DNA from: Amphiscolops sp. MND2022
Lineage: Eukaryota
Assembly (NCBI GenBank): GCA_964187785.1
Contig: OZ076409.1
Span: 4,900,001 to 4,964,000 of the forward strand
Direction of reading: 5' to 3'
DNA: 64,000 nucleotides
Shown here: in pieces, positions 41,317-62,662 of the stretch
Numbering within the stretch: position 1 is the stretch's first letter
Layout: the number at the start of each line of letters is the position of its first letter
The notes under the pieces: generated by a model
The model's input: only the letters and a program-made list of their open reading frames with translations
Told to the model about the DNA's origin: nothing
Databases searched by the model: none
Position numbers and translations under genes: made by a program

Positions 41317-41365
41317 ATGAAGTTTTATATTGTCGCCTTACTCGGCGTCTTCATTGGCCAACAAG
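41317..41365 (+). CDS. Exon 1, signal peptide MKFYIVALLGVFIGQQ
   Basis: ATG-Lys-hydrophobic run; donor AAG|GTTTGT, phase 1. Confidence 0.7.
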
Positions 41366-44300
41366 GTTTGTTTTTTCGATTGTTTTTCTACGAATTATTT
41401 TGAATTGTTTCCCCGTTTTTGAGATATTTCACAAGTTAGTCTACACGTTTATGCTTTCAATCAAAAAATATATAAGCTAGAATTTCAATCGACGATGTTT
41501 CTACGGGGTTTCAATCTATCAATTGATATCAAGAAGTTCGGACCAGAACGGTGTGACTCGCTATCAAAAAATCGCTTCTAGCTATTGCTGCTAATTTGCT
41601 TACCGTTACCGCTAATGATTTTTGCGATCGCGAAAAATAAGAACGATGAAAACTCAAGGTGATCAGTTTGATTTTTATGTTTCCATCTGTTTACCTGCTT
41701 GAATGAACTGCTTCTATTAATTTTATAACACTGTTGTTTTTTATATAGAAACGTGAATTCACCATCTTCGCTGAAGTAAAAAAAAGTTTGATTTTACTTT
41801 GTTATCATTATATTCGACAAGTTTTAAGGACCTAGCCGACTCCTTTTTGCAGTTTTCAAAGCGCCTGTGACAGAAAAAAGCGCTCTCTGCAGCACTTGTT
41901 GGTTGGTACACAGGCCAAAACCGTTTGAATGAGGTCTGTCAACGTATTCGTTTCTTGGCATCCCCAGTGATGCTCCAAAGTCACGTTAGTGACTGGGAAA
42001 TGAACAAAGGCCACGAATTAAGACCATAATGGCTGAATTGAATTATACCAACGCTATCTCTGGCTATTGGAATTTCAATGAGCTGTCGTTGGCCAATCAA
42101 ATTCAGCTAATAGCGGCGCTATCGCACCTAGGATGCTACCAGGACATTTGCCACTACGCAAAGAGCAATTGAGACCCATTAGCAGAATTATGAGAACAAT
42201 CAAGTTTGCTGGAATTTAGCACAAAAATTTGCAAAATATCCTTTAATCTTTAATATAGTCGTGAACTATGGATTCGCTAGTGCTTTTAGATTCAAATTCA
42301 GAGAAATTGTCCCATAGTGAACAGATTGTATTCCCATAGTTAGATTTAGTAGCAAACTACTTAGTAGCTAATAGACCCTACTAGCAAACGCCCTGTAACC
42401 GATATCGAAATGATATTTAATATATCCTCTGTCGTATAGTTAATGTCGAAAATGACTGTTCAAAAAAAACTTTTCATTCCGAGCGGTTTCAATTTTCAGT
42501 TTATGGCCAAGAATGCGATTCACTCATCAAACTGACCAAAGATGACGATTTCAACGCCTGTGTCTTATCAGGTGAGTAGTTCCTTCAATCATACACATCT
42601 GCATTCGTTTTTTGTTGTAGTACATGTATCCCCTATGCCTGAGGGGATGTCGCGCACTTAAGCGTCAAATAGACCATTTTGAGTCTTCCATCGCGGCAAC
42701 AGTGCAGGAGCGAAGGCTGTCGTGAATTGAGACAATCCCTAATTGGGTGCATATCCGGAACCTAGTTTTTCAACCATTTCAATAAATTTTGGTGTTTTGT
42801 TTTGTAAATCTGTCCTCCACTTGATGAGGTTTTCAATATTTGTATATGCGGGGACCGTTACTGACACTGCAAGGAGGCTCTGCAGCTTGCAGCGATTCGG
42901 CACTATCTCATTCCTCAGTTTAAAAATTGCCCCTTTGAACTCTGGGCCATCATTCCTGTTGCAGACCAACATAGTTTCGCTTCGCACGGTCCCCATTTTG
43001 TGAAAAGAAGAAATAGGAAGTACATGTATGTTTCATTTGTTTTTCCAAATCAAAGTTGAAGAATGGTTAAGCCGGTAATTTTGCATCCATTCGAAAATCC
43101 TGGAGTTTGAAAATCCTGGAATCACTTGAATTCTCTACAAAATGCATGGTATGTCATCCATGTTTGTTTTCCGAATTTTCAAAAATTTTTCATCGAAATT
43201 GTAGAATGATTTTATCATTTTCTTATAAAACGTTTATAACGATAAGAATGCGCCATTTCCGAATTATTCACATCGCTCCTGAGATTGTATTTTGCCGAGA
43301 CGAAGGTAAGAAAAATACTTTTTTGAATTGCCATTCTGTGACTTTATATACATTTTTACATGAACTAGTTTTCGGAGACTTTTTTACATTTAAGTATCAC
43401 TTTTTGGCGCACAATAAAACTGGAAGGTGTCTGAAGCTTTCTCTGAAGGCATGCTAGCAGAATATACAAAAAATCGCAGTGCTACTGCGTCTCTTGTCAA
43501 TCATCCTTTAAATGTGGAAAATAAATTCAAGGCTTTGTTTGAATCGTAAGGAAAATGCTCAACAAGACGGGAACGTCTAAAGTCGGCGCCATATCTAAGG
43601 CTCAAAAAGCTCAAACTTTTTGAAATTGTAAAAGGGGGGACCCTTTGGGTTTTTTGAAAAAAAAAGAAAAATCGAAAAATCAGAATTTTGAGCCAGTCTC
43701 CTAGTGCCGAAAAACTTGAAAAGGGAGACCCTTTGGGCTTTTTGAAACTTCAATTTGTTGTAAAATATCGAAAAAACTTGAAGGGGGACCCTTTGGAGCC
43801 AAAAAAATTTCGAAAAGTCGCACAGTGCCGAAAAAAACTCAAACCCTATAGTCTTGTCCTGTTTTGTATCTTACGATAAAAATGGAGTAACTGAAAGGGG
43901 GGACCCTTTGCACTATCCTAAATGCGCTCCCCGTTTGCCTTTGCCGGTCCAGTAGTTTAGTACTGTATTTAGTAGTTGAACCTTAATTTTAACGTTCGTC
44001 GCTTCGAAACTGTCTTAAAGAAAAAAAACGAGTGACTGTAATAGTCGGGCTCTTTTATTTATAAAAGCGCCGACTAAAAACGGCATTCAAGGCTTCCGAA
44101 CAACTCAGTTATCTGTACATACAAGTCCGGGTGAATTTATGTTTCACATTAATCAAACTCTGTTGAGTCCAGGAACCAGAGTTTTAACATCGCTATTTTT
44201 TCTAAACCGCTAACTCCAACATCGCTGTCTCGCCGAAAAACGTTTTTTTAAAAAAAAAAAATCATTTTGAAACTCGTGTATTTTGCGAGCAAAAATAGTC

Positions 44301-62300: not shown

Positions 62301-62662
62301 TCCTTACAAAAACGAAATATAGTTCAGATATAACGTCAAGAGTTCGGATATAGCGCTTTACTCCTGATACTCCGAGGGAGGGGTGACCCTTTGGAGACAA
62401 AAAAAATTTCGAAAAAAAGTTGCACAGTGCCAATAAAAATTAAAGGGGGACCCTTTAGTCTAGTCCGGTTTTGTATCTTACCTTAAAAATGGAATAAATA
62501 AAAGGGGCCCTTTGCACCAGCTTAGATGCGTTTCCGCTCGCCGGTCCAGTAGTTTAGTAGTTTTGTAAAAACTTTGAAATTGTTTCATTTTTCTTTCAGG
62601 CTCTGATCCGAGAACAAGTGTACAACTACGTGCCTGACTTGAAGAAATGCGAGAAACAGTAA
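41317..62662 (+). CDS. 12-exon prosaposin-like/granulin fusion gene, 637 aa: signal peptide-(SapA-like/SapB)x3-granulin-unassigned C-terminal region. Exons 41317-41365, 42500-42571, 44810-45033, 47156-47281, 48317-48559, 49811-49945, 50549-50785, 52790-52952, 56372-56554, 60006-60243, 60874-61054, 62600-62662
   Basis: All 11 introns GT-AG, phases 1,1,0,0,0,0,0,1,1,2,0 join into one open frame (1,914 nt incl. TAA); most exons are GC3-rich islands in AT-rich introns; saposin and granulin cysteine patterns; AATAAA at 62803-62808. Confidence 0.85.
42500..42571 (+). CDS. Exon 2, VYGQECDSLIKLTKDDDFNACVLS (reduced 2-Cys SapA-like segment)
   Basis: acceptor TTTTCAG, donor CAG|GTGAGT, 72 nt, phase 1-1. 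Confidence 0.75.
43561..44080 (-). mobile_element. HINE-like element in intron 2; further copies 45053-45589, 48611-49400 (two partial), 53211-53711, ~58715-59027, 59447-59940, 61114-61410, ~62205-62565
   Basis: AACAAGACGGGAACG..AAGTCGGCGCCATATCTAAGGCTCAAAA start, ATAGTCGG..GCGCCGACTA end, no TSD. Confidence 0.7.
44177..44381. mobile_element. hAT-like MITE; related copy 50076-50425
   Basis: CAG..CTG termini; TSDs CCAGGAAC/CCAGGAAT and perfect GTCTTAAT. Confidence 0.75.
44810..45033 (+). CDS. Exon 3, N-part of saposin B-type domain 1
   Basis: TTGCAG acceptor, CGA|GTGAGT donor; GAWNKP...DCEWTVDAL...EMCASL...QLCADTTDKYYKR. Confidence 0.9.
46822..47018. mobile_element. Tc1/mariner-type MITE
   Basis: TIR CAGTACTGTGATTAAGAAA flanked by TA. 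Confidence 0.8.
47156..47281 (+). CDS. Exon 4, end of SapB-1 and first half of SapA-like domain
   Basis: TTTAG acceptor, AAG|GTTCGT donor; VIVLLFLGVPDERIAGLLGVC...CDNAFAVCDNLKTAK. Confidence 0.88.
47767..47907. mobile_element. hAT-like MITE
   Basis: TIR CAGAGTTG(A/G)AACCGGGCC; TSD AGTATGAT/ATTATGAT. Confidence 0.7.
48317..48559 (+). CDS. Exon 5, second half of SapA-like domain and N-part of SapB-2
   Basis: SCARSKQCMQWMW...MCTECQALVSELQQML...NICERFFSNDQCEEYV; TTTTAG / GTTAGT. Confidence 0.92.
49811..49945 (+). CDS. Exon 6, end of SapB-2 and first half of next SapA-like domain
   Basis: EILMLLENDVTPVQVCSLIEMC...CEADLVTLCQNPEHAK; TTTTCAG / GTCAGT. Confidence 0.92.
50549..50785 (+). CDS. Exon 7, second half of SapA-like domain and N-part of SapB-3
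   Basis: ACELVAVC...ICEGCEALMATVKEYL...QLCQYCPEQQECENAINTYLP; CCCTAG / GTGAGT. Confidence 0.92.
50915..51050 (+). mobile_element. tRNA-derived SINE (diverged)
   Basis: A box TGGCTCAGTTGG, degenerate B box GGTTTGAATCT, tail shared with other copies. Confidence 0.65.
52666..52789 (+). mobile_element. tRNA-derived SINE abutting exon 8 acceptor
   Basis: TGGCGCAGCTGA / GGTTCGAACCC boxes; colinear with copy at 60460-60587. Confidence 0.8.
52790..52952 (+). CDS. Exon 8, end of SapB-3, linker, first Cys of granulin module
   Basis: QIIALVQNYLQPVEVCKALGLC...YAVRCPNGE; TTTAG / GTACGA, phase 0-1. Confidence 0.9.
55429..55880. mobile_element. hAT-like MITE with CCGG-rich subterminal repeats; related copy 58225-58565
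   Basis: TAG(A/G)G(G/A)TGTACCGGAC..TGCACCTCTA termini; perfect TSD ATTTCAAC at second copy. Confidence 0.75.
56372..56554 (+). CDS. Exon 9, granulin/epithelin module
   Basis: [45 protein letters not shown]; with exon 8 gives C-C-CC-CC-CC-CC-C-C; TTTTGCAG / GTTAGT. Confidence 0.93.
60006..60243 (+). CDS. Exon 10, acidic 4-Cys region of unknown family
   Basis: TTGCAG acceptor phase 1 matching exon 9 donor; GC3-rich; donor GTTAGT phase 2. Confidence 0.8.
60460..60587 (-). mobile_element. tRNA-derived SINE
   Basis: minus strand TGGCGCAGTTGGTAG and GGTTCGAACCC boxes followed by non-tRNA tail. Confidence 0.8.
60874..61054 (+). CDS. Exon 11, predicted helical region
   Basis: CTGCAG acceptor phase 2, donor GTT|GTAAGT; GC3-rich. 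Confidence 0.8.
62600..62662 (+). CDS. Exon 12, terminal coding exon ALIREQVYNYVPDLKKCEKQ*
   Basis: strong acceptor TTTTCTTTCAG, TAA, AATAAA 140 nt downstream. Confidence 0.75.
   Translation, partial: ALIREQVYNYVPDLKKCEKQ

What the first reader, a model, noticed from the sequence alone, without database searches (positions are those of the whole stretch)
41317..62662. Prosaposin-granulin fusion gene
Seen: three saposin B-type domains are spliced in frame to a complete 12-Cys granulin module. The first granulin Cys (VRCPNGE) lies in the same exon as the end of SapB-3 (exon 8), so the fusion does not rest on joining two neighbouring genes by guesswork. Known: in mammals prosaposin and progranulin are separate lysosomal precursors that bind each other and assist each other's lysosomal delivery. 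Inference: a Rosetta-stone fusion that hard-wires the partnership in one polypeptide. I do not know this architecture from a characterised protein but cannot exclude unannotated database examples.
Basis: partly seen in the sequence, partly recalled or inferred. Interest (0 to 1): 0.9.

Follow-up and report, generated by a model that had tools for sequence, protein, structure and literature searches.

The report
Saposin precursor gene with embedded granulin
An animal gene encodes one precursor protein in which a complete granulin module sits between saposin domains, joining two lysosomal protein families that bind each other as separate proteins in mammals.

Summary
Window 41317-62662 (+) is an intact 14-exon gene: 2100-nt CDS, 699 aa, 13 of 13 introns GT-AG. 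Exon 8 (52790-52952) carries the end of a SapB domain and the first granulin Cys. Exon 9 (56372-56554) carries the other 11 Cys (Pfam Granulin 51 bits, E 1.5e-13).

The exon 8/9 join does not rest on guesswork. Four unnamed relatives on intronless, transcript-length contigs (P0001 78%, P0002 57%, P0019 31%, P0144 29% identity) are collinear with the window. All carry the granulin at the same position.

The granulin is internal, not terminal. Three saposin-fold domains precede it. A fourth saposin-like domain and a helical C-terminal domain follow it. A single R-x-[K/R]-R site lies 25-27 residues behind the module. One homologue, P0195, lacks the module.

The same genome also has a stand-alone multi-granulin gene. 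I found no other multi-saposin gene in it.

No paper describing this architecture turned up. The lysosomal "hard-wired partnership" reading is inference. No RNA data for this species could be obtained.

The parts
41317..41365 (+). Exon 1: start ATG and hydrophobic N-terminus (probable signal peptide)
   Evidence: gene model. One search shows the N-terminal 30 residues with a hydrophobic core. One search gives the tblastn match to the P0001 N-terminus.
42500..42571 (+). Exon 2: end of the signal region and start of the mature protein (first conserved Cys)
   Evidence: home-built N-terminal profile, E 3.8e-6.
44810..45033 (+). Exon 3: first part of the N-terminal saposin-fold domain
   Evidence: N-terminal profile E 1.1e-37; hhalign of this domain against SapB-1 and SapB-2 gives probability 95.5% and 96.8%; in the P0001 model, residues 63-146 align to saposin-like Na-SLP-1 (Z 9.7, rmsd 2.2, 81 residues aligned).
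47156..47281 (+). Exon 4: end of the N-terminal saposin-fold domain and a Cys-rich SapA-like linker
   Evidence: SapA itself is below the Pfam cut-off in relatives (18 bits against 22).
48317..48559 (+). Exon 5: SapB domain 1, first two thirds
   Evidence: Pfam SapB_1 40 bits, E 3.8e-10; this is the only SapB_1 hit in the whole genome at E <= 0.001.
49811..49945 (+). Exon 6: end of SapB domain 1 (SapB_2 part) and a Cys-rich linker
   Evidence: SapB_2 16.7 bits, below the cut-off..
50549..50785 (+). Exon 7: SapB domain 2, first two thirds
   Evidence: SapB_1 19.8 bits, below the cut-off. SapB2 profile E 1.2e-29; in the P0001 model, residues 321-397 align to saposin-fold structures with Z about 10.
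52790..52952 (+). Exon 8: end of SapB domain 2, a 27-residue linker, and granulin Cys1 (codon 52937-52939)
   Evidence: 91% identical to P0001 over all 54 residues.
56372..56554 (+). Exon 9: granulin Cys2-Cys12 (module ends at 56505). The exon is 183 nt, entered and left in phase 1.
   Evidence: the P0001 module against human granulin structures, E 4e-14; zebrafish granulin AaE, Z 6.5, rmsd 1.9, 55 of 56 residues aligned.
57517..57584 (+). Exon 10: linker holding the only R-x-[K/R]-R site of the protein (RSRR, 57546-57557)
   Evidence: An equivalent single site lies 25-27 residues after the granulin in the window's protein, P0001, P0002 and P0019.
58001..58118 (+). Exon 11: conserved helical linker and the C-x2-C start of the fourth saposin-like domain
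   Evidence: post-granulin profile, E 3e-16.
60006..60243 (+). Exon 12: rest of the fourth saposin-like domain (6-Cys SapB spacing)
   Evidence: all 6 Cys are conserved in 6 of 6 sequences; in the P0001 model, residues 536-616 align to caenopore-5 (Z 5.7, rmsd 2.5, 68 residues aligned); hhalign to SapB-2 is weak (probability 3%).
60874..61054 (+). Exon 13: C-terminal helical domain, fold family not settled
   Evidence: C-terminal profile E 3e-21; only generic four-helix-bundle matches (Z 5-6); no profile similarity to SapB.
62600..62662 (+). Exon 14: conserved C-terminus and TAA stop

Best explanation
The locus is an intact, conserved animal gene for a secreted or lysosomal polyprotein precursor of the prosaposin type. 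One complete 12-Cys granulin module is built into its central inter-saposin linker.

Domain order: signal peptide, N-terminal saposin-fold domain, SapB-1, SapB-2, granulin, a dibasic convertase-type site, a fourth saposin-like domain, and a helical C-terminal domain.

Shown:
- the gene structure and the in-frame exon 8/9 join;
- the domain identities;
- the same architecture on intronless contigs from four other lineages;
- strong conservation of the module;
- a separate progranulin gene elsewhere in the same genome.

Inferred: the precursor enters the secretory pathway and is cut at the conserved R-x-[K/R]-R site and in the linkers. This would release saposin-type lipid-binding peptides and one granulin peptide in fixed 1:1 stoichiometry in the same compartment, most likely the endolysosome. 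In that reading the granulin travels with prosaposin in cis, whereas in mammals progranulin binds prosaposin in trans.
For: Gene model:
- 14 exons, 699 aa, no internal stop, 13 of 13 introns GT-AG.
- Pfam Granulin 51.1 bits on exon 9, SapB_1 40 bits on exon 5, SapB_2 24.8 bits on exon 8.

Relatives:
- P0001 (714 aa, 2401-nt contig) is collinear with all 14 exons and 78.2% identical.
- P0001, P0002, P0019 and P0144 all score Pfam Granulin plus SapB_1 plus SapB_2, with the granulin in the same alignment columns.
- L026, the contig of P0144, holds an uninterrupted 769-aa ORF with UTRs in 2542 nt. Contigs of 2.0-2.9 kb cannot hold a gene that spans 21 kb here, so they are spliced transcripts.

Conservation:
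- All 47 Cys of the window's protein are Cys in P0001.
- All 12 granulin Cys are kept in the window's protein, P0001, P0002 and P0019; 10 of 12 in P0144.
- The module is the best-kept region against the distant relatives: 51% and 42% identity to P0019 and P0144, against 15-45% for the other regions.

Processing site: each of the window's protein, P0001, P0002 and P0019 has exactly one R-x-[K/R]-R site, 25-27 residues after the module.

Folds, on the P0001 model: saposin structures Z 9.7-10.2 for three domains, caenopore-5 Z 5.7 for the fourth, granulin AaE Z 6.5.

Same genome: granulin modules occur elsewhere only at C4:39487584-39497639, a signal peptide followed by at least 3 modules.

Mammalian precedent: prosaposin binds progranulin and carries it to lysosomes (PMC4576858, abstract in the listing). 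Granulins, especially D and E, bind the linker between saposins B and C (PMC5655790, passages).
Against: - No RNA from this species: no RNA run was listed. Splicing here is inferred from orthologous transcripts and canonical splice sites.
- Lysosomal targeting, cleavage and any saposin-granulin contact are untested.
- The AlphaFold model is of low overall confidence (mean pLDDT 53.6, pTM 0.26). It was made on the orthologue P0001, not on the window's protein.
- The last two domains are not recognised by Pfam. hhalign gives probability 3% or less against SapB.
- SapA domains, which flank vertebrate prosaposin, are absent or below threshold here.
- The window's protein has no N-x-S/T sequon. A mannose-6-phosphate route like that of mammalian prosaposin is therefore unlikely.
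- A convertase site fits a secreted peptide precursor as well as it fits a lysosomal one.
Confidence: 0.7

Rival explanations
1. The same real fusion gene, but the product is a secreted defence or digestive polyprotein. A convertase would cut it into pore-forming or lipid-binding saposin-like peptides (of the NK-lysin, caenopore or amoebapore kind) plus a granulin peptide. It would have no link to the lysosomal PSAP-PGRN trafficking partnership.
For: - One conserved R-x-[K/R]-R site, typical of secretory-pathway precursors.
- No N-glycosylation sequon, so no mannose-6-phosphate tag is possible.
- Structural matches include NK-lysin (Z 7.9), caenopore-5 (Z 5.7) and hookworm saposin-like proteins (Z 9.7).
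- No SapA domain at the Pfam threshold.
- Relatives are highly diverged, as is common for immune effectors.
Against: - The best sequence matches of SapB-1 and SapB-2 are human saposins C and A and prosaposin (E 1e-9 to 3e-5).
- The multi-domain precursor layout is that of prosaposins.
- The genome has separate single-domain saposin-like genes that could serve as effectors.
- No other multi-saposin gene that could serve as the housekeeping prosaposin was found. That search is insensitive.
Confidence: 0.2
2. Exon 9 is an optional cassette. It is 183 nt, entered and left in phase 1, so skipping it keeps the frame. The main product in this species would then be a granulin-less multi-saposin precursor, with the fused form a minor isoform.
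For: - Exon 9 is symmetrical, phase 1-1.
- The homologue P0195 (with P0269) lacks the module and has an acidic Asp/Tyr-rich linker there instead.
Against: - Assembled transcripts from four lineages all include the module.
- Skipping would leave Cys1, in exon 8, unpaired.
- The module is the best-conserved region between distant relatives, which argues that it is regularly translated.
Confidence: 0.08
3. The fusion is an artefact: two neighbouring genes, or an assembly chimera, wrongly read as one gene.
For: No RNA data from this species. All relatives are unnamed assemblies.
Against: - The granulin lies in the middle of the protein, with family-specific conserved domains on both sides.
- Cys1 shares an exon with the SapB end.
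- There is one continuous frame with 13 canonical introns.
- Five independent sequences have the same order: this genome, three assembly collections and one metagenome-collection contig, L026.
Confidence: 0.02

Closest known systems
Vertebrate prosaposin (PSAP), precursor of saposins A-D
   Same: Signal peptide followed by a tandem array of 6-Cys SapB domains joined by cleavable linkers. SapB-1 and SapB-2 match human saposin C, saposin A and prosaposin chains by sequence (E 1e-9 to 3e-5) and by fold (Z about 10).
   Different: - Carries a granulin module in its central linker.
- No SapA domain reaches the Pfam cut-off in the window's protein or P0001.
- The flanking domains are divergent.
- There are no N-glycosylation sequons.
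- One-to-one orthology of its domains with saposins A-D is not established.
Progranulin (GRN), tandem granulin precursor
   Same: The module has the full 12-Cys granulin pattern and passes the Pfam cut-off. It matches human granulin structures at E 4e-14 and granulin AaE at Z 6.5.
   Different: Only one module is present, and it is embedded among saposin domains. The genome has a separate multi-module progranulin gene on another contig, whose first module is 44% identical to this one. Cys1 is separated from Cys2 by an intron here. In two of the three C4 granulin ORFs the exon instead begins at one of the Cys pairs.
PSAP-PGRN complex of mammals (two proteins binding in trans)
   Same: It pairs the same two protein families. 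In mammals, granulin domains bind the linker between the second and third saposins (PMC5655790, passages). Here the granulin is encoded inside a central inter-saposin linker, between SapB-2 and the next saposin-like domain.
   Different: Here the link is covalent and involves a single granulin. Equivalence of the two linkers is only a resemblance, because this protein has an extra N-terminal saposin-fold domain. No binding or trafficking data exist for this protein.
Plant granulin-bearing papain-like cysteine proteases, and plant aspartic proteases with a saposin-like insert
   Same: Both are precedents for a single granulin module, or a single saposin-like domain, fused to another vacuolar or lysosomal protein (PMC4527844, passages; PMC4154668, abstract in the listing).
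   Different: The partners are proteases, not each other. The plant granulin has two extra Cys and is C-terminal (PMC4527844). [quoted passage not shown]

Membership tests
Granulin module (Pfam PF00396) | Score above the Pfam gathering cut-off | tested here: met
   51.1 bits against a cut-off of 20.9, E 1.5e-13, on the exon 9 ORF alone. 49 bits in P0001.
Granulin module (Pfam PF00396) | Twelve Cys in the pattern C, C, CC, CC, CC, CC, C, C | tested here: met
   Read directly from exons 8 and 9. All 12 are kept in P0001, P0002 and P0019; 10 of 12 in P0144.
Granulin module (Pfam PF00396) | Stacked beta-hairpin fold | tested here: met
   In the P0001 model, residues 420-474 are all beta-strand. 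They align to zebrafish granulin AaE with Z 6.5, rmsd 1.9, 55 of 56 residues. This was tested on the orthologue, and local pLDDT is only 59-68.
Progranulin (tandem granulin precursor) | A protein made of a chain of granulin modules | tested here: not met
   The gene and the whole window contain one module only. The rest of the protein is saposin-type.
Prosaposin / saposin-like proteins | SapB domains (SapB_1 plus SapB_2, 6 Cys) above the Pfam cut-off | tested here: met
   Exon 5 scores SapB_1 40 bits and exon 8 scores SapB_2 24.8 bits. P0001 has SapB_1 and SapB_2 with two stretches each.
Prosaposin / saposin-like proteins | Several saposin domains in one signal-peptide-bearing precursor | tested here: met
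   Three domains are supported by Pfam or hhalign and by fold (Z 9.7-10.2). A fourth is supported by its 6-Cys spacing and Z 5.7. The hydrophobic N-terminus was judged by eye; no signal-peptide predictor was run.
Prosaposin / saposin-like proteins | SapA-type domains at the N- and C-termini, as in vertebrate prosaposin | tested here: not met
   - No SapA hit in the window's exon ORFs or in P0001.
- None in the genome at E <= 0.001.
- P0019 and P0144 score 18 bits against a cut-off of 22.
- The granulin-less homologue P0195 does pass, at 43 bits.
Prosaposin / saposin-like proteins | Lysosomal processing to sphingolipid activator peptides | not testable with these tools
   Needs cell biology and biochemistry.
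Rosetta-stone fusion of interacting partners | The two parts are separate interacting proteins in other species and one polypeptide here | tested here: met
   The single polypeptide here is shown. Separate, binding proteins in mammals are reported in PMC4576858 (abstract) and PMC5655790 (passages).
Rosetta-stone fusion of interacting partners | The fused parts are orthologues of the separate partners | tested here: inconclusive
   Family membership is shown for both parts. Orthology to PSAP is not shown. The progranulin orthologue appears to be the separate gene on contig C4, so the embedded module is a paralogous copy.

The most novel reading that the evidence does not exclude
This gene may be the only prosaposin of its lineage. 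Its granulin sits in the counterpart of the saposin B-C linker, the very site that mammalian granulins bind in trans. On that reading the saposin-granulin partnership is ancient in animals, and has been solved in cis in a group of marine invertebrates. The released granulin peptide would then act together with saposins in lysosomal lipid breakdown. That would give a natural one-gene model for asking what granulin peptides do in lysosomes.
Probability: 0.3. Interest if true: 0.8.

Novelty: new variant of a known kind. Interest (0 to 1): 0.62.

Why it matters
Progranulin loss causes frontotemporal dementia and a lysosomal storage disease. What granulin peptides do inside lysosomes is still unclear. 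Prosaposin is progranulin's known trafficking partner in mammals.

A natural, conserved gene that encodes saposins and a granulin in one precursor is independent evolutionary evidence that the two families work together in one compartment. It also contradicts the published generalisation that animal granulin modules are never joined to non-granulin proteins (PMC4527844, passage).

It offers a simple experimental handle. One gene and one module could be deleted or swapped to test what a granulin contributes to saposin function.

Tried and rejected
- RNA evidence: no RNA holder was listed for window 50500-60300, so read laying could not be used.
- Complex prediction (SapB-2 plus linker, and linker plus fourth domain, against the granulin) was not available and nothing was folded.
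- ESM Atlas with P0001 gave no usable hit.
- Taxon of the genome:
  - Wnt genes are present, so it is an animal.
  - No arthropod cuticle domain (PF00379) and no GH6 domain were found.
  - An Atlas search with a Wnt ORF gave only generic Wnt clusters.
  - The phylum stays undetermined.
- A canonical prosaposin as genome query (P0245) found nothing, not even the window's own gene, so it is uninformative.
- My first automatic splice-site refinement script crashed. I then set the boundaries by reading the sequence and verified them.
- Foldseek on the whole 714-residue model gave no match at E <= 0.001. The domain-resolved VIA-align second look was used instead.
- I considered that exon 9 was captured from the genome's own progranulin gene by exon shuffling. 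The intron positions differ and identity is only 44%, so there is no support either way.
- Region-restricted homologue search (P0001 residues 1-415) found only P0001 and P0002 among 7154 candidates.
- The metagenome scan returned one locus, the contig of P0144.

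
Full report
**1. What is in the sequence**

The window is eukaryotic DNA of about 40% G+C with introns of 0.4-3.4 kb. On the + strand between 41317 and 62662, a series of open stretches carry saposin-type and granulin-type sequence.

Pfam scans of the single-exon ORFs gave:

| ORF | Pfam family | Bits | Cut-off |
|---|---|---|---|
| 48317-48568 | SapB_1 | 40 (E 3.8e-10) | 25.2 |
| 52790-53080 | SapB_2 | 24.8 | 21 |
| 56341-56559 | Granulin | 51.1 (E 1.5e-13) | 20.9 |
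| 50549-50902 | SapB_1 | 19.8 (below cut-off) | 25.2 |
| 49703-49981 | SapB_2 | 16.7 (below cut-off) | 21 |

Exon 8 ends GAAG|gtacga at 52952. Exon 9 begins ttttgcag|ATTGTG at 56372. Exon 8 ends with the residues VRCPNGE. Exon 9 continues with the remaining eleven cysteines. The join is in phase 1 and gives the complete 12-Cys granulin pattern.

**2. Gene model**

I set the boundaries by reading the sequence around the tblastn matches and then checked them.
- There are 14 exons: 41317-41365, 42500-42571, 44810-45033, 47156-47281, 48317-48559, 49811-49945, 50549-50785, 52790-52952, 56372-56554, 57517-57584, 58001-58118, 60006-60243, 60874-61054 and 62600-62662.
- The CDS is 2100 nt and encodes 699 residues, with one stop at the end.
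- 13 of 13 introns are GT-AG with pyrimidine-rich acceptors.
- Exon 9 is 183 nt and is entered and left in phase 1.
- A scan of every ORF of the window with profiles of each domain found each module once, in order, on the + strand. There is no second granulin exon.

**3. Independent support for the join**

A search with exon 8 alone found P0001. It is 714 aa, from a 2401-nt contig, 91% identical over the exon, and has precomputed Pfam hits for Granulin, SapB_1, SapB_2 and Saposin (confirmed). P0001 maps collinearly onto all 14 exons and is 78.2% identical to the model (558 of 714 columns).

Further searches found other members with the same architecture:
- P0002: 663 aa, 56.8% identical, with four cluster members.
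- P0019: 765 aa, 30.6% identical.
- P0144: 769 aa, 28.8% identical, with three cluster members.

In alignments the granulin occupies the same columns in all of them.

All lie on contigs of 2.0-2.9 kb. The one I could read as DNA, L026, is a 2542-nt contig with an uninterrupted 769-codon ORF and untranslated ends. The gene spans 21 kb with 13 introns here, so such contigs must be spliced transcripts. None carries a name or a taxon. No RNA run for the window's own species was listed, so splicing in this species itself remains inferred.

**4. How restricted the architecture is**

- Of the 120 proteins listed (137 passed E <= 0.001 among 8000 scored candidates), 3 have both granulin and saposin Pfam families. 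The other 117 are granulin proteins.
- An exhaustive profile search of 1.84 billion representatives gave 3737 hits at E <= 0.001, and the best 150 were listed.
- I scanned all 265 proteins then in hand with home-built domain profiles. Only 8 have both kinds of domain: P0001, P0002, P0121-P0124, P0019 and P0144.
- A Pfam check covered 15 proteins: 10 whose best match straddled the boundary, 2 very large multi-saposin proteins (P0128, P0140), and P0234, P0235 and P0245. None of the 15 had both.
- One further family member, P0195 (659 aa, 23.5% identical, with P0269), shares the N-terminal, post-granulin and C-terminal regions. It has an acidic Asp/Tyr-rich linker in place of the granulin, and it has Pfam-significant SapA domains.

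The module was therefore gained or lost within this family. Ordinary prosaposins lack it, so gain is the simpler reading, but no rooted tree was made. Family members scoring below the best 150 could not be seen.

**5. Anatomy of the protein**

- The N-terminus is hydrophobic. I judged this by eye as a signal peptide.
- hhalign shows that the N-terminal domain is homologous to the two Pfam-positive SapB domains (probability 95.5% and 96.8%). SapB-1 against SapB-2 gives 99.2%.
- An AlphaFold model of P0001 from a 10-sequence alignment has low global confidence (mean pLDDT 53.6, pTM 0.26). Its domains nevertheless align to solved structures:

| Model residues | Best match | Z | rmsd | Aligned |
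|---|---|---|---|---|
| 63-146 | saposin-like Na-SLP-1 | 9.7 | 2.2 | 81 |
| 192-268 | saposin A | 9.9 | 2.9 | 77 |
| 321-397 | surfactant protein B N-domain | 10.2 | 2.6 | 77 |
| 420-474 | granulin AaE | 6.5 | 1.9 | 55 |
| 536-616 | caenopore-5 | 5.7 | 2.5 | 68 |
| 620-714 | generic helical bundles only | 5-6 | 3.5 or more | 75-89 |

- The fourth domain has the 6-Cys SapB spacing, conserved in 6 of 6 sequences. It gives only 3% hhalign probability against SapB-2. I call it saposin-like, not proven.
- By sequence, P0001 matches human granulins (E 4e-14 to 8e-11) and human saposins C, A and D (E 1e-9 to 7e-3) in the PDB.

**6. Signs of function**

- All 47 Cys of the window's protein are Cys in P0001.
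- The granulin region is the best-conserved region against the two distant relatives: 51% and 42% identity, against 15-45% for the others. This argues for selection on the module.
- The window's protein, P0001, P0002 and P0019 each contain exactly one R-x-[K/R]-R site, always 25-27 residues behind the last granulin Cys. In the window it is RSRR at 57546-57557. P0144 has such a site at residue 523, behind its granulin (449-494 by my home-built profile), plus one more. P0195 has its only such site in the same linker.
- This looks like a conserved proprotein-convertase site that splits the precursor into a saposin-saposin-saposin-granulin half and a C-terminal half.
- The window's protein and three relatives have no N-x-S/T sequon. 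A mannose-6-phosphate tag is therefore unlikely.

**7. The rest of the genome**

The window lies at C1:4900001-4964000 of a 1.07-Gb assembly.
- Granulin modules occur elsewhere only at C4:39487584-39497639. ORFs there show a signal peptide followed by at least three modules, which is a stand-alone progranulin gene. Its first module is 44% identical to the P0001 granulin module.
- The saposin parts of P0001 match nothing outside the window.
- Pfam SapB_1 hits only exon 5.
- Pfam SapB_2 adds one weak hit on C9. This proved to be two single-domain saposin-like genes, at 29210849-29211175 (-) and 29224330-29224635 (+).
- SapA was not found.

No second multi-saposin precursor was found. These exon-by-exon searches miss divergent domains: they missed exon 7 of this very gene. 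Absence is therefore not shown.

Wnt genes show the organism is an animal. Its phylum was not determined.

**8. Comparison with what is known**

- In mammals prosaposin binds progranulin and carries it to lysosomes through M6PR and LRP1 (PMC4576858, abstract seen).
- The contact is between granulin domains, especially D and E, and the linker between saposins B and C (editorial PMC5655790, passages read).
- Here a granulin is encoded inside a central inter-saposin linker. The parallel is suggestive, but linker equivalence is not established.
- Full-text searches found no description of the architecture. They covered saposin/granulin/fusion/domain architecture, granulin domain/saposin B/prosaposin-like, the Pfam accessions, five fusion phrases (0 papers), Rosetta stone and domain shuffling.
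- The library lacks most subscription journals, and I could not query InterPro. Unannotated or annotated database examples beyond those found here remain possible.

**9. Verdict**

This is a real, conserved gene in which a granulin module is embedded in a prosaposin-type precursor. The most likely mode of action is co-synthesis, co-transport and proteolytic co-release of saposin peptides and one granulin peptide. Only the architecture, its conservation and the cleavage motif are shown. Localisation, processing and any saposin-granulin contact are inferred. A secreted defence-peptide precursor is the main rival.

It is a new domain combination of two known families, so a new variant of a known kind. 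It is of real interest to lysosome and progranulin biology, but it is not a new kind of system.

Noticed in passing
window 8400-38000, both strands: Long ORFs typical of LTR retrotransposons. These include a 707-aa gag/protease/reverse-transcriptase-like ORF at 34791-36914 and an integrase-like ORF at 36932-37795. The C-terminal part of that integrase-like ORF recurs at 32644-33267. More such ORFs lie on the minus strand at 18617-20294. This explains the higher G+C of 8-38 kb. I only listed them.
   Followed up: no
window 52717-52732 (+) and 60518-60533 (-): A tRNA-like box-B motif occurs in introns 7 and 12: 2 matches against 0.04 expected. ARAGORN finds no tRNA gene in the window. These are probably tRNA-derived SINE copies.
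   Followed up: partly
window introns, e.g. 43500-43880, 45135-45420, 48650-49315, 53420-53730, 58690-59870, 62335-62485: The same short ORF texts recur on both strands in many introns of the gene. This points to an abundant interspersed repeat family. It was not characterised.
   Followed up: no
own genome C4:39487584-39497639 (loci L002-L004): A stand-alone progranulin-type gene: a signal-peptide-like start followed by at least three granulin modules. The first module lies in one exon; later exons start in the middle of modules.
   Followed up: partly
own genome C9:29210849-29211175 (-) and C9:29224330-29224635 (+): Two similar single-exon, single-domain 6-Cys saposin-like genes lie about 13 kb apart in opposite orientation.
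   Followed up: partly
window gene product and P0001, P0002, P0019: There is not one N-x-S/T glycosylation sequon in proteins of 663-765 residues. P0144 has one and P0195 has three. This is unusual for a lysosomal glycoprotein family.
   Followed up: partly
own genome C4:84315055-84315951 (-), locus L025 484-1458: A divergent Wnt is encoded in a single 324-codon ORF. Only four Wnt loci were detected in the genome by an exon-wise search, which gives a lower bound.
   Followed up: no
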